Origin: Naegleria gruberi
Lineage: Eukaryota
DNA length: 64,000 nucleotides
Direction: 5' to 3' (one strand)
NCBI GenBank assembly: GCA_000004985.1
Contig: GG738848.1
The notes beneath the pieces are model-generated. The model had not been told where the DNA came from. It searched no databases and saw nothing but the letters and a program-made list of their open reading frames with translations. The position numbers and the translations under genes were made by a program. Of this stretch, positions 15,996-26,467 are shown one piece after another; positions within the stretch are counted from its first letter, which is position 1, and every line of letters begins with the position of its first letter.

Positions 15996-16583
15996 TTATT
16001 CATATTCCAAAATTGGTTCTCCTATAGCAGTAATCTTATCAATACTTGGAGGGAAATCGAATACTTTGGCCAATACAAGTTTGAAAAGCTTTTTGATGTT
16101 AATACCAGCAGCAGCGCTACAATAGATGAGAGGACACTTCATCTTTTCAGCATATTTTCTGGCTTGTGCTGTTATATCTTCTTGATCTTCCTTTGGGAGA
16201 TCAACAAACTTATCATACTTTGTACCAATCAAAAAAGGCAGAGCTCGTTTGTTATATTTTCGTGAGTGAAGGAACCAATCTTTAACGGAACGAAGTGTTT
16301 GTTTCCTTGTGAGATCAAACATAAAGAACAAAGCTAAGGAATCATTACAGACAAGGTCAAGCATGCTCATAAACTCTTTTTGACCTCCTAAATCCCAAAT
16401 CATTAGATTTACTTCCGTATTCTTGATTTGGACCTTCTTTTCCAAAAAGTTAACTCCAAGAGTCATAATATAATCCTCATCAAATTTACCATTAACATAT
16501 TTCACCATCAAACTTGTTTTACCAACTTGTACGTCACCAAGCATACCAACTTTAACCACGAATTGTTTGTTCTTACTAGACAT
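15996..16583 (-). CDS. Spg1/Tem1-type septation (SIN/MEN) small GTPase
   Basis: G1 GDVQVGKTSLMVKYV, G3 WDLGGQKEF, G4 IGTKYD. Overall spacing closely follows S. pombe Spg1 / S. cerevisiae Tem1 rather than Rab or Ras. Confidence 0.85.
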   Translation of the reverse strand: MSSKNKQFVVKVGMLGDVQVGKTSLMVKYVNGKFDEDYIMTLGVNFLEKKVQIKNTEVNLMIWDLGGQKEFMSMLDLVCNDSLALFFMFDLTRKQTLRSVKDWFLHSRKYNKRALPFLIGTKYDKFVDLPKEDQEDITAQARKYAEKMKCPLIYCSAAAGINIKKLFKLVLAKVFDFPPSIDKITAIGEPILEYE

Positions 16584-17022
16584 TTTTACTACTATTTGTT
16601 GTTGTTATATCCGATGTTGTTGTTGTTATATGTTGTGATTTTAATAATTCAAGATCGGCACCTTCTTCGTCTCTTTTAAAAAACTTGTTGTTGATGGCGG
16701 CGAAAGAACAATATCGTAGATTATTTTTTTTGTGATGATAGGAGGGATTGGTGTTATGATGATGGTGATGTGGGCAACCTTTAAATGCATTGATGAGTTG
16801 TTGTGTGACCATTGATTACCTGCAGTGTTCAAGAACTTGACTGAGAAATCATCTAATTATCCTCCTGAGTCATTCATCATAAAGTATTAGATAAAACTTT
16901 GTTCATAAAACTGTTGTTGAACGATCAATAGACACAATGAATATCCTCCTATTTCCAATTACAATGTACAAATTTTTGAAATGTTGTAATAATAATAATT
17001 TAATTTTCTTCTAGATTTGAGC

Positions 17023-18102
17023 TTAGAGTAACATGAATGAAATCAATGAGAGGAGGGCAACAATTAATTGAAGGGCAGCAACTGAGGCATTGGATTTCTT
17101 ACTGCTTGCTGCAGTAGGAGTTGAGGATTTTCTGACACCAACGGCAACATTACTAGTTGCACCAACATCACCCACATAACTGAGCTTGGTGGCATCTAAC
17201 TTGACTTGATAGAGAGCATTAATAATAGGAGCAAGGTAGGCATGACAGAAATCAGCATTTAAGGTCTTGGTATATGGATCAGCACCCAAAGAAAAAGAGG
17301 TAATGTTGGCATTTGGGAAATTGCTTTTAGCAAGAGTTTCCATTGAAGTACCAGATTGAACACACAAATTGACTGTCTTTTGATTAAGATCACTCAAAGA
17401 TGAAATAGCAGAGCCAAGATTGCCTTTGACAACACCATTACCATCCTTAATATATGGACAAGTAAAATCAATCAAATCAGTTCTTGGAACAGTTTGACCT
17501 GAAGGGAGAGTTACTGTACCTTCAACTGACATACCACTCAAAATAAAATCAAATCTGAGATTACCCATATCAGTAATGAGATTACCAAAAACAGTGGTAT
17601 CATTGGTAAAGTAAGCTTGGAAAGGAACACCTGCATAATTCATACCAATTCTATAAGCAATAGAGGCAGCAATATCTTTAAAATTCAATTAGAACACATT
17701 AATACAGCACTATTTAAACTTACCAGCTTCGAAACCAGTGCATTTACCATAATTTGAACCTACAGCAGTGTAATTAAATCTTTTTGGAACATTCGCAACA
17801 CTGTTAGCACCAAAGAGAATATATTTACGTGCGAGAATACTGGCCATAGTAGAATCAGCTTGAAGGTCGGAAGCAGCTGGCCAAGTAGTATAATTTGTAC
17901 ATTTACTTGTTGGGGCATGGAGAATATTGTCACCAAAGTAAGATTGATGGATAGCATTGAACCCAATACTAGTTGTTGTATCAGCAAGGAAATCATAAAC
18001 AGCCTTGTTCAATGTTTTGGCAGCTGTTGACTGGGCACTGACAAGTGTAGCAGTGGTGGCAACTACACAACACAAAACGACAAGGAAAAATAAATTCTTC
18101 AT
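17023..18102 (-). CDS. Secreted, probably GPI-anchored protein with bacterial-type solute-binding family 3 (PBP type II) domain. Two exons: 17724-18102, 17023-17675
   Basis: N-terminal signal peptide MKNLFFLVVLCCVVATTATLVSA. SBP_bac_3-like core …DFILSGMSVEGTVTLPSGQTVPRTDLIDFTCPYI…. C-terminal S-rich stretch then hydrophobic tail AALQLIVALLSLISFMLL (GPI signal-like). A 48-nt GTAAGT…AAAG intron gives a phase-1 join. Confidence 0.65.
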
Positions 18103-18347
18103 ATTTTCTATTTATCAGAATGTTATTTGATAAAAATATTATTATTAGATTGTTAAAAATTGTGTTGATGGCACGTTGAAACATACCAAAAAATAAAAGG
18201 AGCGATGATGAATTTTTTTTGTTCGGAGAGAACGACAAATCTCTCAATTTATGTGATTTTATGCACTTACAAAAGACATTAAAAACTGGAGACATTAGAG
18301 AAATTACAAAGATAATTCGGAGGTACCTTAGAAGGTTTTATTGAGGG

Positions 18348-20516
18348 TTAATAGATCGATTTGGCTTCCTTTCTGTAGGAGGATATTAATTGTTGTGGAT
18401 AGTGAAGAGAAAGCTTTTTGAGAATAACGTCCAATCTTCTTTGTCTTTTTCTTGATGTTTTTGGAACTTGTTGAATTATGAAATGTCTTGGCAAGACAAA
18501 GTATTGGAATTTTTGTAGAATCAAATTGGCGTGGTAAATAATCTTATCGTTGGTACTATCTTGTGTGTAGAGAGGCAAGTGAGATACTTGGCCAATTATT
18601 ACTGGCTCGAATGGATAACTTGCTTTGATTTGATAGGCTTTTTGACCTTGTGAAGAAACACTGACATATCTTGCAGTGTCAATAAATGCATTGTCTGAAT
18701 CAACTGGAGCGTATTCATTACTTTTGAATAGGGACTTTTTCAGAGTGGTAAATTCTTGTGGAATGTCAGTATTTTCATCATCTGATTGACTAATGAAAGA
18801 TGGGACAACAAATACAATCTTTTCCTTTTCTAAATATTGAGAGAGGGAAGGATACGATTCCATTAAATTTTGTGGAGATTTCCATAATCTGGTCTCAATT
18901 TTGGCGGAGATTGGTTCCAACTTGTCGAGTGGCTTGGAGGATTTGTCATGTACGAATAATTTCAAAAAGTCTCTGTTCAAATACTTGGAAATGACGCTAC
19001 TGGCATCTACTAGAGCAATCCATTTGGTTCTTGTCATAAGAATTGCTTCATTTCTTAGCAAATTAATAGGAAGTTTGTGTTCATCGAAAGTTGGAATCAC
19101 AATACACTTGTAATCAAATTTGACTTTCTTAGAGGATACAACAAGTTGAGTTAACTTTTCTGAGGAACAGTCACTTTGTGATTTAGAAGCTATGGAAACT
19201 ACCAAGTTATCACCTTCAGAGAGTCTCTTGATAAAATCGTTAATAAGAGGTATCTGAGAAATAGTGCAGTAGGTAGCAAATGTAAGACCGTTTTCAAGCA
19301 ATTCTGTTGAACGTTTTTCAAAATCGTGAGAAGGTGTCCATTCAATGGAGTAAGGTGAGGGAACAAAATAAATTGGAGGTGATGGGATTTCATCCTTAAC
19401 ATTGTTATAGGATTCCAATATGTTTGAGATGAAAGACTTGGTTATCATTCTTCTTATATCTACAATGGAAAAGCTGCTTTGATAGCTTGACTCTAAAGAT
19501 TTCTTTTCTAATTCATCTCTGACAAGTTCAATAATTTTGGAATTTTTCACCTTGAATTGATTATCTTCAGGAGAGGAAGTAGCAAACACAAACCACAATA
19601 ATTCAGGCACTTCCTTCTCAGTTAAAGGTTCTAATTTGCTGGAAGATACCCACTTGGTTTGTAATTTCCTGTTAATTGTCCTCGAGGATTTAGAAAGAAC
19701 ATTTTCAACATTGGTAAAGTATGGAGTATTCTTTTCAGAGTTCATTACATTGAATGCCAAAAGACCATAGTCAACATGCTCACCAAACAATGATTTTCTA
19801 TCTGATGTTTCTTTCAATAAATAATCTACTCTCTTATTATCTTGATTAACAAATATCGAAAATCCTGGCTCCAAAATCAAAACATATTCTGCCAATCTGC
19901 TTGTCGATTTTAATCCATTAGAAATCAATGCAGGAGCTTGGCATTTCTTGGCTGTAAAGACTCTAAACACGTCATAAAGTTCGGGATTGGAATATTTTGA
20001 CATGTGTAAATCCTTTTTTAAATCTTCACACATTGATATCGTCACTATAATTTGACTTTCTCTTAATTTATCTAATTTATCCAAATATTCCTTCTCAATC
20101 CAATCCATCTGTGAAACTGTTTCAACATATGAAATAATACCCAATTTACTCTTTTTAAAAACATCATCACCTGTTGGAAGATTAGGTATTTCCTCTTTAA
20201 CGTTCTCCCATTCAAATGTTTCCGTTCTACTAAATTGTAATGAAAAAATCAACAATATTATAAGTGGTATAGCAATAATTGCCACTAAAATCCATCGATT
20301 TGGTTTAGATGATGAAGCAGATTGTTTGTATTGTCCTCCTCCATACGAAGAATATTTACTATTGCCATAACTATAGGATGTTGAATGGGAGATTGGATTT
20401 TCATCAATAGGAGAAGCCAACTTTGTTGGTCGATTTCTCATTGTTAATGGTTGGGTGTAGGCACTTCCCGAAGTTGTGGTCAGAGATGAAAATTCTTCAT
20501 CATCACGAAAAGACAT
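18348..20516 (-). CDS. Type II membrane protein with large lumenal/extracellular domain (722 aa), hypothetical, possibly glycosyltransferase-like
   Basis: Cytoplasmic S/Y-rich N-terminus, single TM WILVAIIAIPLIILLIFSL, then a 620-aa globular region. No definitive catalytic motif recognised. Confidence 0.5.
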   Translation of the reverse strand: MSFRDDEEFSSLTTTSGSAYTQPLTMRNRPTKLASPIDENPISHSTSYSYGNSKYSSYGGGQYKQSASSSKPNRWILVAIIAIPLIILLIFSLQFSRTETFEWENVKEEIPNLPTGDDVFKKSKLGIISYVETVSQMDWIEKEYLDKLDKLRESQIIVTISMCEDLKKDLHMSKYSNPELYDVFRVFTAKKCQAPALISNGLKSTSRLAEYVLILEPGFSIFVNQDNKRVDYLLKETSDRKSLFGEHVDYGLLAFNVMNSEKNTPYFTNVENVLSKSSRTINRKLQTKWVSSSKLEPLTEKEVPELLWFVFATSSPEDNQFKVKNSKIIELVRDELEKKSLESSYQSSFSIVDIRRMITKSFISNILESYNNVKDEIPSPPIYFVPSPYSIEWTPSHDFEKRSTELLENGLTFATYCTISQIPLINDFIKRLSEGDNLVVSIASKSQSDCSSEKLTQLVVSSKKVKFDYKCIVIPTFDEHKLPINLLRNEAILMTRTKWIALVDASSVISKYLNRDFLKLFVHDKSSKPLDKLEPISAKIETRLWKSPQNLMESYPSLSQYLEKEKIVFVVPSFISQSDDENTDIPQEFTTLKKSLFKSNEYAPVDSDNAFIDTARYVSVSSQGQKAYQIKASYPFEPVIIGQVSHLPLYTQDSTNDKIIYHANLILQKFQYFVLPRHFIIQQVPKTSRKRQRRLDVILKKLSLHYPQQLISSYRKEAKSIY

Positions 20517-26368: not shown

Positions 26369-26394
26369 CTAATTTAAGGAGGCAAAAGGTTAAG

Positions 26395-26467
26395 TGGAGA
26401 TGCGGGGTATCGATCCCCGTACCTCTTCCATGCTAAAGAAGCGCTCTACCATGTGAGCTACATCCCC
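26395..26467 (-). tRNA. tRNA-Ala (anticodon AGC)
   Basis: Minus strand reads GGGGATGTAGCTCACATGGTAGAGCGCTTCTTTAGCATGGAAGAGGTACGGGGATCGATACCCCGCATCTCCA. Cloverleaf with G3:U70-type acceptor, anticodon loop TTAGCAT and T-arm GGGGATCGATACCCC. No encoded CCA. Confidence 0.85.

What the first reader, a model, noticed from the sequence alone, without database searches (positions are those of the whole stretch)
17023..18102. Bacterial-type periplasmic solute-binding (family 3) domain presented as a GPI-anchored surface protein
Signal peptide, SBP_bac_3-like core and a C-terminal Ser-rich omega region plus hydrophobic tail indicate a surface-anchored amino-acid-binding module. It could be a nutrient sensor or receptor ectodomain acquired from bacteria. 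A 48-nt spliceosomal intron shows it is integrated into the eukaryotic genome rather than being contamination.
Basis: partly seen in the sequence, partly recalled or inferred. Interest (0 to 1): 0.5.

Follow-up and report, generated by a model that had tools for sequence, protein, structure and literature searches.

The report
Rearranged solute-binding protein on Naegleria surface
This Naegleria gruberi gene encodes a secreted, probably lipid(GPI)-anchored version of the ligand-catching protein that prokaryotes use for nutrient import, but with its chain order rearranged as in proteins of Heimdall (Asgard) archaea, so it looks like a eukaryotic surface sensor family that may be of archaeal rather than bacterial origin.

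Summary
The gene lies on the minus strand at 17023-18102, with two exons and a 48-nt GTAAGT...AG intron at 17676-17723. Its 343-aa product is exactly XP_002682113.1 of Naegleria gruberi NEG-M, auto-named "amino acid abc transporter".

The protein has a signal peptide, a type-II/cluster-F solute-binding (SBP_bac_3-like) Venus-flytrap core, and a Ser-rich stretch followed by 19 hydrophobic residues that end the protein. All 11 close homologues keep this GPI-signal-like end.

- **Circular permutation.** The helix pair that ends canonical SBPs sits at the N-terminus here.
- **Distribution and relatives.** Members occur in Heterolobosea, Preaxostyla, Carpediemonas and Phalansterium, including TM and receptor-kinase forms. 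The only prokaryotes with the same permutation, linker motif and helix insertion are Heimdallarchaeia ABC-importer SBPs. "Acquired from bacteria" is therefore not supported.
- **Altered pocket.** The carboxylate-clamp Arg is kept, but the Asp that binds the alpha-ammonium group is an invariant Pro. An alpha-amino-acid ligand is doubtful.

The most likely function is a GPI-anchored surface ligand sensor or co-receptor. This is inferred, not shown. I rate it a new variant of a known kind, of moderate interest.

The parts
17724..18102 (-). Exon 1 (codons 1-126 plus the first base of codon 127)
   Evidence: ORF and splice reconstruction. The product is identical to XP_002682113.1.
17676..17723 (-). 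48-nt spliceosomal intron, GTAAGT...TTAAAG, phase 1
   Evidence: Removing it restores the conserved GFEADIAASIA. It differs at 2/48 positions from strain L001, against 6/1032 in the exons.
17023..17675 (-). Exon 2, including the stop codon at 17023-17025
18034..18102 (-). Signal peptide, aa 1-23 (MKNLFFLVVLCCVVATTATLVSA), with a predicted cut after VSA
   Evidence: Read from the sequence. N-terminal hydrophobic leaders are present in all full-length homologues. No signal-peptide predictor was run.
17926..18027 (-). Permuted helix pair, aa 26-59 (TAAKTLNKAVYDFLADTTTSIGFNAIHQSYFGDN). It is the equivalent of the C-terminal helices '...lnkAL..l..dGty..i..KWFG' of canonical SBP_bac_3 proteins.
   Evidence: HHalign of the eukaryote N-segment profile against the canonical C-tail profile gives 96% probability and P 3.7e-9; the control gives 0.54. 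The family profile hits AncCDT-1 in two stretches in swapped order. MAFFT aligns it collinearly with a permuted E. coli GlnBP. AF2 places helices at 26-40 and 48-56 with pLDDT 91-94.
17848..17925 (-). Linker, aa 60-85, that joins the old C-terminus to the old N-terminus. It contains the conserved Cys68 and the aromatic-Pro motif (TTWP).
   Evidence: [WYF]P lies 8-15 aa upstream of the core in 34/38 eukaryotic and 16/16 Heimdall class-A proteins. The linker profiles align with P 2.4e-9.
17128..17847 (-). Bilobed SBP (Venus-flytrap) core, aa 86-309; this span includes the intron. Pocket residues are S176, R191 (17482-17484), T236 and P276 (17227-17229). There is a family-specific 14-aa loop between SGMS and R191.
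17083..17127 (-). Ser/Thr/Ala-rich region, aa 310-324 (SSTPTAASSKKSNAS), holding candidate omega sites (A316-S-S, S321-N-A, N322-A-S). AF2 predicts it to be disordered.
   Evidence: Rule-based scan. pLDDT is below 50 for residues 312-322.
17026..17082 (-). C-terminal hydrophobic tail, aa 325-343 (VAALQLIVALLSLISFMLL), which ends the protein. This is the putative GPI-attachment signal.
   Evidence: No charged residue follows the hydrophobic stretch in any of the 11 close homologues. Archaeal relatives instead end in TM+RRKK, and P0041 and P0110 have a TM plus a long cytoplasmic region.

Best explanation
The gene encodes a secreted, N-glycosylatable ectoprotein. Its whole mature part is a circularly permuted cluster-F (SBP_bac_3-type) Venus-flytrap ligand-binding module.

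Shown by computation: the fold, the permutation, and the loss of the alpha-ammonium Asp with retention of the carboxylate-clamp Arg.

Inferred steps:
- After ER import, the C-terminal 19-residue hydrophobic peptide is exchanged for a GPI anchor at a small residue around A316-N322. The flytrap then sits on the outer face of the plasma membrane.
- It closes on a small, carboxylate-bearing ligand that is probably not a standard zwitterionic alpha-amino acid.
- No ABC permease partner was found in the window, and none is known to me in eukaryotes. The liganded protein therefore most likely signals through a transmembrane partner or raft clustering, acting as a chemosensor or co-receptor for prey- or nutrient-derived compounds.

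The family probably derives from Heimdallarchaeia-type membrane-anchored ABC-importer SBPs that carry the same permutation.

For: **Permutation.**

**Anchor.** All 11 close homologues end in 16-27 uncharged hydrophobic residues preceded by small-residue triplets 20-29 residues from the end. The archaeal relatives have TM+RRKK instead.

**Pocket.** R191, S176 and T236 are kept. D157 has become an invariant P276, and D10 has become N100.

**Receptor use in relatives.** P0110 has this SBP followed by a TM and a PK_Tyr_Ser-Thr kinase domain (E 2e-55). P0041 (Phalansterium) and P0085 (Carpediemonas) have a TM plus a cytoplasmic tail.

**Precedent.** Entamoeba EhVFT is an experimentally GPI-anchored PBP-type flytrap that affects motility and phagocytosis (PMC12965686).

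**No transporter partner nearby.** No ABC permease or ATPase homologue is present in the window.

**Archaeal link.** The class-A permutation is found only in Heimdallarchaeia/Hodarchaeales among named prokaryotic hits. Those genes sit beside ABC_tran and BPD_transp_1 on archaeal contigs. A shared insertion of at least 6 aa occurs in the alpha1-beta2 segment. The linker motif is shared. In the NJ tree, eukaryotes are sister to the archaeal cluster in about 82% of replicates.
Against: - GPI anchoring was judged by hand-written rules only. No NetGPI, PredGPI or big-PI run was possible and there is no experiment. Presence of the GPI transamidase in Naegleria was not checked here.
- No ligand, partner, expression or localisation data exist for this protein.
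- The sensor role is argued by analogy with receptor-kinase relatives and EhVFT.
- The archaeal origin is not supported by plain similarity of the core. HMMs built from archaeal and from canonical SBPs score eukaryotic cores equally (mean difference 0.3 bits). The tree is a crude NJ tree with a biased outgroup sample. It places eukaryotes beside the whole archaeal cluster, not specifically beside the class-A Heimdall group.
- The Pfam SBP_bac_3 score of this protein is just under the curated threshold.
Confidence: 0.5

Rival explanations
1. Nutrient-capture receptor. The GPI-anchored flytrap binds a scarce nutrient at the surface and delivers it by endocytosis or hands it to a secondary transporter. 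GPI-anchored folate or transferrin receptors work this way, and it would continue the ancestral import role without an ABC permease.
For: The closest prokaryotic relatives are import SBPs encoded next to ABC permease and ATPase genes. The carboxylate clamp is retained. The gene is single-copy and conserved across Naegleria and Willaertia. From general knowledge, Naegleria is highly endocytic.
Against: No SBP-dependent uptake system is known to me in eukaryotes, and no permease lies nearby. Relatives fused to a kinase domain or to cytoplasmic tails point to signalling. The canonical amino-acid pocket is altered.
Confidence: 0.22
2. Single-pass membrane protein, not GPI-anchored. The C-terminal hydrophobic stretch stays as a transmembrane helix with essentially no cytoplasmic tail, as a direct descendant of the C-terminal TM anchor of the archaeal relatives.
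For: The Heimdall relatives are anchored by a C-terminal TM helix. AF2 models residues 322-342 as a helix. No GPI predictor was run.
Against: None of the 11 close homologues has a positively charged stop-transfer or cytoplasmic residue after the hydrophobic stretch. The archaeal proteins always have RRKK-type ends, and the true TM eukaryotic relatives have long tails. Small-residue omega triplets preceded by a disordered Ser-rich spacer are conserved.
Confidence: 0.15
3. Surface or secreted enzyme derived from an SBP, as cyclohexadienyl dehydratase (PheC/CDT) evolved from an amino-acid-binding protein.
For: The best sequence matches in PDB are reconstructed ancestors on the CDT lineage and CDTs themselves. 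The alpha-ammonium Asp is lost and new invariant polar residues appear: H271, Y273, N279 and the K107-R108 loop.
Against: AncCDT-1, the top hit, is itself a binding protein, not an enzyme (PDB title). Hits to genuine binders (Trp-, Arg-, Gln- and Glu-binding proteins) are equally strong. CDT catalytic residues were not mapped. No metabolic context is evident.
Confidence: 0.06
4. One reading: a recent horizontal acquisition from bacteria, or bacterial contamination, of an ordinary amino-acid ABC-transporter binding protein.
For: The NCBI name is 'amino acid abc transporter'. HMMs built from canonical (mostly bacterial-type) SBP cores score the eukaryotic cores as well as the archaeal HMMs do.
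Against: - The intron sits at a conserved position.
- The gene lies on a 712-kb NEG-M scaffold between eukaryotic genes and is syntenic in N. lovaniensis.
- Orthologues and paralogous family members occur in at least four eukaryotic lineages.
- The permuted topology is absent from the canonical, bacterial-type hits among the 273 proteins collected here.
- Only 177 proteins out of 1.84 billion representatives score E<=1e-3 with the family profile.
Confidence: 0.05

Closest known systems
Polar amino-acid ABC-importer binding proteins (cluster F / Pfam SBP_bac_3: GlnH, HisJ/LAOBP, ArtJ, ArgBP, AncCDT-1)
   Same: The bilobed Venus-flytrap fold is the same, and the homology is clear at profile level (E 1e-46 to 5t0w; Foldseek E ~1e-15). 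The Arg clamp and the Ser/Thr and Thr backbone binders of the ligand carboxylate are conserved.
   Different: - The chain order is circularly permuted, with the C-terminal helix pair moved to the N-terminus.
- The alpha-ammonium Asp is replaced by an invariant Pro.
- There is a 14-aa extra loop before the Arg clamp and an insertion of at least 6 aa after helix alpha1.
- It has five Cys in the mature part and N-glycosylation sequons.
- It is a eukaryotic gene with an intron.
- No ABC permease partner is present.
- It has a GPI-type C-terminus instead of a soluble or lipoprotein form.
Heimdallarchaeia/Hodarchaeales 'class-A' permuted SBPs (e.g. P0155, P0156, P0157, P0172; loci L002, L004, L006)
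   Same: The circular permutation has the same break point (starts at 'GN..L..ALN', ends at 'GIGVRK'). Linker length and the aromatic-Pro motif are the same, as is the alpha1 insertion. Both are anchored to the membrane at the C-terminus. The alignment is end to end (window protein 2-335 against P0156 4-310, E 1e-16).
   Different: The archaeal proteins keep every canonical amino-acid-binding residue. They end in TM+RRKK rather than a GPI-like signal. They are encoded beside ABC_tran and BPD_transp_1 genes, lack the extra loop and the Cys pattern, and are only 24-27% identical to the Naegleria protein.
EhVFT of Entamoeba histolytica (GPI-anchored Venus-flytrap receptor; PMC12965686)
   Same: The concept is the same: a prokaryote-type periplasmic-binding-protein flytrap with a signal peptide and a C-terminal GPI signal and no TM domain, on the surface of an amoeba. 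EhVFT was experimentally linked to motility and phagocytosis.
   Different: EhVFT belongs to the type-I PBP / ANF_receptor (LIVBP-like) class, not to SBP_bac_3, so the two are analogous rather than members of one family. EhVFT keeps the amino-acid-binding motif of its class.
PfVFT1 (Plasmodium falciparum PF3D7_0606800, PDB 5JKQ)
   Different: Identity is only 11%, and no sequence-level link was detected. It is reported to have no identifiable anchor and not to be GPI-anchored. I could not check whether it shares the permutation.
Ionotropic glutamate receptor ligand-binding domain (Lig_chan-Glu_bd plus Lig_chan)
   Different: The Pfam match is not significant (E 0.19). There is no channel domain. 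The iGluR ligand-binding domain is split by the pore rather than circularly permuted. Bacterial and archaeal SBPs are far closer.

Membership tests
SBP_bac_3 / cluster-F solute-binding proteins | Pfam PF00497 score at or above the gathering threshold | tested here: not met
   The score is 25.5 bits against a cut-off of 26.4, with E 1.3e-5. Relatives pass: P0004 Willaertia and P0009/P0010 (precomputed), P0012 at 35.6 bits and P0110 at 56.3 bits.
SBP_bac_3 / cluster-F solute-binding proteins | Statistically significant sequence homology to solved family members | tested here: met
   phmmer against PDB gives E 2e-10. TIGR01096 gives E 1.3e-10, far below that model's own trusted cut-off. The profile of the eukaryotic family against PDB gives E 1e-46.
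SBP_bac_3 / cluster-F solute-binding proteins | Two alpha/beta lobes joined by a two-strand hinge (type-II flytrap fold) | tested here: met
   [not shown]
SBP_bac_3 / cluster-F solute-binding proteins | Canonical chain order with the helix pair '...KWFG' at the C-terminus | tested here: not met
   The helix pair is at the N-terminus (aa 26-59): HHalign P 3.7e-9, swapped order of HMM stretches on 5t0w, swapped BLAST HSPs between P0023 and P0043.
SBP_bac_3 / cluster-F solute-binding proteins | Alpha-amino-acid pocket: Arg clamp plus Ser/Thr for the carboxylate, and Asp for the alpha-ammonium group (GlnBP R75, T70, D157; numbering recalled from the literature and checked against the sequence) | tested here: not met
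   R191, S176 and T236 are present. The D157 position is P276, invariant in the subfamily, and D10 is N100. This rests on a sequence alignment, not a structural superposition.
SBP_bac_3 / cluster-F solute-binding proteins | Works with an ABC permease and ATPase | tested here: not met
   tblastn of the Heimdall neighbours' ATPase and permease against the 64-kb window gives no hit at E<=1. The rest of the N. gruberi genome could not be searched.
GPI-anchored proteins | Cleavable N-terminal signal peptide | tested here: met
   The n/h/c organisation MKN-LFFLVVLCCVVA-TTATLVSA was read directly. Hydrophobic leaders are conserved in homologues. No predictor was run.
GPI-anchored proteins | C-terminal signal: small omega/omega+2 residues, a short polar spacer, and a hydrophobic stretch that ends the protein | tested here: met
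   The rule-based scan finds omega candidates A316, S321 and N322 and a 19-aa uncharged tail. The same holds in 11/11 close homologues. The spacer is predicted to be disordered.
GPI-anchored proteins | Actual lipid anchoring (PI-PLC release, C-terminal processing) and presence of the GPI transamidase in the organism | not testable with these tools
   No experiment was possible, and literature searches gave nothing specific for Naegleria. A pangenome paper mentions evidence of GPI-anchored proteins only in passing (PMC9928731).
Ionotropic glutamate receptor ligand-binding domain | Significant Lig_chan-Glu_bd match and an attached ion-channel domain | tested here: not met
   PF10613 gives E 0.19 and 12.3 bits against a cut-off of 30. 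The protein has no further domain.
Heimdall-type class-A permuted SBPs (provisional group defined here) | Same permutation break point, a ~22-27-aa linker with aromatic-Pro, and an insertion of at least 6 aa after alpha1 | tested here: met
Heimdall-type class-A permuted SBPs (provisional group defined here) | Phylogenetic nesting of the core with the class-A archaeal proteins | tested here: inconclusive
   In the NJ tree, eukaryotes are sister to the whole archaeal cluster (82/100 replicates at Jaccard>=0.9), and eukaryotes plus class A are never recovered as a group. HMM score competition shows no archaeal preference.

The most novel reading that the evidence does not exclude
The circular permutation, its linker and the alpha1 insertion are shared derived characters. 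They would mark one lineage of membrane-anchored ligand-binding proteins that passed from Heimdallarchaeia-like archaea into eukaryotes before the major supergroups diverged. Members are seen in Discoba, Metamonada and Amoebozoa.

In eukaryotes this lineage would have been uncoupled from its ABC importer and re-used as a surface receptor module in three forms: GPI-anchored, single-pass, and fused to protein kinases. That would make it a rare non-informational, cell-surface sensing component of possible Asgard ancestry.
Probability: 0.25. Interest if true: 0.75.

Novelty: new variant of a known kind. Interest (0 to 1): 0.55.

Why it matters
Solute-binding proteins are the front end of prokaryotic ABC importers. 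To my knowledge, eukaryotes were known to reuse the SBP_bac_3 fold mainly inside glutamate-receptor channels.

This locus points to a second, stand-alone eukaryotic use. It is a conserved, single-copy, probably GPI-anchored flytrap in Naegleria, including the pathogen N. fowleri, and it belongs to a family that also contains receptor kinases.

If the ligand and partner can be found, the protein could explain how these amoebae sense prey or nutrients, and it is a surface-exposed antigen candidate.

The shared circular permutation with Heimdallarchaeia SBPs gives a discrete character, independent of tree reconstruction, with which to test whether a surface-sensing protein came to eukaryotes from Asgard archaea or by later transfer.

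The current database name, "amino acid abc transporter", is misleading and should be corrected.

Tried and rejected
- **Paralogue in the window:** none. tblastn finds only the gene itself.
- **Structure jobs with the spliced sequence typed in:** I worked around this by modelling the N. lovaniensis orthologue and later using the database copy P0273 of the exact protein.
- **AlphaFold-database fold search:** the library was unavailable.
- **Profile search of the 5.8-billion-protein set with the broad eukaryotic alignment:** it returned almost nothing new, apparently because the candidate filter saturated. The taxonomic breadth therefore rests on two cluster look-ups.
- **HMM score competition between archaeal and canonical core profiles:** no preference either way. 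I do not claim that core similarity supports the archaeal origin.
- **Sequence link to PfVFT1 (5JKQ):** none found with the family profile or with divergent members P0053 and P0030. The describing paper, PMC5563136, is not held.
- **Literature on Naegleria GPI machinery, or on this protein family:** nothing specific.
- **Bacterial contamination or recent bacterial transfer:** rejected, as set out under the rival explanations.
- **iGluR ligand-binding-domain affinity:** rejected.
Full report
**1. What is in the sequence**

The finding sits on the minus strand. Reading 18102 down to 17023 gives an ATG-initiated ORF that stops after "...GFEAGKFK*". A second ORF in another frame runs to a stop at 17023-17025. 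Removing 48 nt (17676-17723, GTAAGT...TTAAAG, phase 1) joins them into a 1032-nt CDS of 343 codons.

The exact 343-aa product is already in the databases as XP_002682113.1 / EFC49369.1 / D2V1T9, "amino acid abc transporter [Naegleria gruberi strain NEG-M]", on a 712-kb scaffold. The two flanking ORFs are XP_002682112.1 (Ras-family GTPase) and XP_002682114.1.

The intron is supported independently in three ways:
- The junction restores GFEADIA(A/S)SIA, which is conserved in N. lovaniensis, Willaertia and environmental homologues.
- Prokaryote-style gene calls on an N. fowleri contig and an environmental contig break at the same codon (P0017 and P0018 end "...GFEAG...").
- Against a 98%-identical strain from a metagenome (L001), the intron carries 2/48 differences and the exons 6/1032.

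The GTPase-SBP gene pair is also adjacent in N. lovaniensis (C9374_014524/014525).

**2.

*Signal peptide.* MKNLFFLVVLCCVVATTATLVSA|QS has the usual n/h/c layout. All full-length homologues start with a hydrophobic leader.

*Core.*
- Pfam SBP_bac_3 scores 25.5 bits, a hair under the 26.4 gathering score. By that formal criterion the protein alone fails.
- TIGR01096 (Lys/Arg/Orn-binding protein) gives E 1.3e-10.
- phmmer against PDB gives E 2e-10 to AncCDT-1.
- A profile of 31 eukaryotic relatives hits PDB cluster-F SBPs at E 1e-46.

The SBP core is real.

*C-terminus.* After the last strand (...VAVGVRK309) comes SSTPTAASSKKSNAS, which is predicted to be disordered (pLDDT <50 for 312-322). Then comes VAALQLIVALLSLISFMLL, and the protein ends. 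A simple rule scan finds small-residue omega/omega+2 triplets 22-29 residues from the end. It finds the same design in all 11 close homologues: 16-27 uncharged terminal residues and nothing after them.

The contrast with relatives is informative. The archaeal relatives end in a TM helix followed by RRKK-type residues. The eukaryotic relatives that are true membrane-spanning proteins have long cytoplasmic parts. I therefore regard a GPI signal as the best reading, at about 0.75. No dedicated predictor or experiment was available, and I did not verify the GPI transamidase in Naegleria.

**3. The protein is a circular permutant**

Between the signal peptide and the first core strand lie about 60 extra residues, two helices at 26-40 and 48-56 with pLDDT 91-94. 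Their sequence, TLNKAVYDFLADTTTSIGFNAIHQSYFGD, is the motif that ends canonical SBPs ("lnkAL..l..dGty..i..KWFG").

The tests were:
- A profile of the eukaryotic N-segments aligned to a profile of the C-terminal tails of 36 canonical SBPs gives HHalign probability 96% and P 3.7e-9 over 35 columns. A control internal segment gives P 0.54.
- The eukaryotic family profile matches AncCDT-1 (5T0W) in two stretches in swapped order. Profile positions 79-296 match chain 12-216, and profile positions 30-55 match chain 220-245. Many other PDB SBPs also show two stretches.
- E. coli GlnBP, rewritten as residues 193-226 followed by 1-192, aligns collinearly with the family.
- A 30-residue eukaryote-only HMM hits canonical proteins at their C-termini (relative position 0.93-0.97). 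It hits a second class of archaeal permutants in mid-chain, as expected for each architecture.

**4. Relatives**

An exhaustive profile search of 1.84 billion representative proteins found only 177 with E<=1e-3 and 15 with E<=1e-30. This is a small, divergent family.

Identified eukaryotic members are:
- Naegleria gruberi, N. lovaniensis and N. fowleri, and Willaertia magna
- Trimastix marina and Paratrimastix pyriformis
- Carpediemonas membranifera, with two tandem modules plus a TM
- Phalansterium solitarium, with a TM plus a cytoplasmic tail

Many further metagenomic proteins have the same layout and GPI-like or TM ends. One of them, P0110, is this module followed by a TM helix and a PK_Tyr_Ser-Thr kinase domain (E 2e-55).

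The best prokaryotic hits are not bacterial. They are 320-360-aa proteins with the same N-terminal helix pair, a Thr-rich stalk and a C-terminal TM+RRKK. A search seeded with one of them shows the following:
- Every named full-length (>=84% coverage) match is from Heimdallarchaeota or Hodarchaeales MAGs.
- In one-genome-per-species GTDB contigs, the two end-to-end matches are a Heimdallarchaeota MAG and an unnamed archaeon.
- These genes lie on long archaeal contigs next to ABC_tran and BPD_transp_1 genes, or near PolD, SecY and S25e. They are genuine ABC-importer SBPs.

The same archaeal cluster (Heimdall, Kariarchaeaceae, Poseidoniales, Thalassarchaeaceae) also contains other forms: a canonical-order form (P0043, Hodarchaeales), two other permutation classes cut at different points, a tandem duplicate (P0020), and fusions to ANF_receptor/Peripla_BP_6 domains. 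This is the pattern expected if permutants arose by duplication and truncation within this archaeal cluster.

**5. Is the eukaryote-Heimdall link specific?**

In favour:
- The break point is the same. Both start at "GN..L..ALN.." and end at "G(I/V)GVRK".
- The linker has the same length class and an aromatic-Pro motif 8-15 residues before the core. It occurs in 34/38 eukaryotic and 16/16 Heimdall class-A proteins, where shuffles predict about 14 and 3. The linker profiles align at P 2.4e-9, though part of that score comes from the flanking canonical motifs.
- There is a shared insertion after helix alpha1. The GF(D)-to-W segment is 24 residues in 46/50 canonical SBPs, 30 in all class-A and class-B archaeal proteins, and 30-42 in all eukaryotic members.
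- In an NJ tree of the re-permuted core (131 sequences, 201 columns), the eukaryotic sequences cluster and are sister to the archaeal cluster. The eukaryote+archaea split is recovered (Jaccard >=0.9) in 82/100 bootstrap replicates.

Against:
- The tree does not place eukaryotes next to class A specifically.
- HMMs built from archaeal cores and from canonical cores score the eukaryotic cores equally.
- The method and the outgroup sampling are crude.

My reading is that the permutation most likely had a single origin shared with Heimdall-type proteins, so the source was archaeal rather than bacterial (about 0.6). The timing, pre-LECA inheritance or later transfer followed by spread among protists, is open.

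**6. The pocket**

The mapping uses GlnBP ligand contacts. I recalled these from the literature and checked the numbering against the 226-aa sequence.
- The Heimdall proteins keep D10, the aromatic residues, T70, R75, T118 and D157.
- In the Naegleria protein R75 is R191, T70 is S176 and T118 is T236. D157, which holds the alpha-ammonium group, is P276. That Pro is invariant in the subfamily, together with C270, H271, Y273 and N279. D10 is N100 and F13 is N104.
- The "YPPFE" loop is replaced by a nearly invariant "PKRFN".
- A 9-21-residue loop is inserted between the SGMS motif and the Arg clamp in this subfamily only.

I infer that the ligand still carries a carboxylate or other anion but is probably not a free alpha-amino acid. 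This rests on sequence alignment only.

**7. Mechanism**

Shown by computation: a secretory leader, a permuted flytrap fold, a conserved but altered cleft, a GPI-type end, no ABC partner in the window, a single copy in the window, and one hit per sequenced Naegleria species.

Inferred: the protein is displayed on the outer leaflet by a GPI anchor, closes on a small anionic ligand, and relays the event through a membrane partner or raft clustering.

Support comes by analogy from the kinase-fused and TM relatives. It also comes from Entamoeba EhVFT, a GPI-anchored flytrap of the other PBP class that affects motility and phagocytosis (PMC12965686). The main rival is nutrient capture for endocytic uptake. 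A retained TM helix and an SBP-derived enzyme are less likely.

**8. Known or new**

The gene and its SBP similarity are already recorded, under a misleading automatic name. A GPI-anchored flytrap in an amoeba has a 2026 precedent of a different fold class.

I found no paper describing this family, its circular permutation or its Heimdall relatives. The library is limited, so absence is weak evidence. I class the finding as a new variant of a known kind, with moderate interest (0.55). Interest would be higher (about 0.75) if the Asgard-to-eukaryote inheritance holds, to which I give about 0.25.

Noticed in passing
window 18348-20516 (-): The upstream neighbour, XP_002682114.1 (722 aa, annotated as hypothetical), has an N-terminal membrane span and a Glyco_transf_49 domain (LARGE/B4GAT1-type glycosyltransferase, E 2.9e-11). 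It is unannotated as such.
   Followed up: partly
window 15996-16583 (-): The downstream neighbour is an intron-less 195-aa Ras-family small GTPase (XP_002682112.1; Ras E 1.6e-33). The GTPase-SBP gene pair is also adjacent in N. lovaniensis (C9374_014524/014525).
   Followed up: partly
window 26394-26467 (-): A tRNA-Ala(AGC) gene is the only tRNA ARAGORN finds in the 64-kb window.
   Followed up: no
P0003 (N. fowleri FDP41_009315, 273 aa): The N. fowleri orthologue's public gene model lacks about 80 residues of lobe 1 and part of lobe 2 compared with N. gruberi and N. lovaniensis. It looks mis-spliced rather than truly truncated.
   Followed up: no
P0110 (Logan assembly, 667 aa): In an unidentified eukaryote, this protein combines the permuted SBP module, a TM helix and a PK_Tyr_Ser-Thr kinase domain (E 2e-55). 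It is a receptor kinase with an SBP_bac_3-type ectodomain.
   Followed up: partly
P0020, P0027, P0032, P0044-P0051, P0175-P0264; loci L008-L085: Marine archaea (Poseidoniales, Thalassarchaeaceae, Kariarchaeaceae) carry at least two further circular-permutation classes of the same SBP, cut near profile positions ~50 and ~110-124. They also carry a tandem duplicate and fusions to ANF_receptor/Peripla_BP_6 modules of up to 1064 aa. All share the 'DDTxxDTATxYP' linker.
   Followed up: partly
[not shown]
   Followed up: partly
L001 (ENA metagenome ERZ929261, 2827 bp): This environmental contig is 98% identical to window ~16630-18700 at the nucleotide level. It shows a close N. gruberi-like strain in a public metagenome, on which prokaryotic gene callers split the gene into its two exons.
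   Followed up: yes
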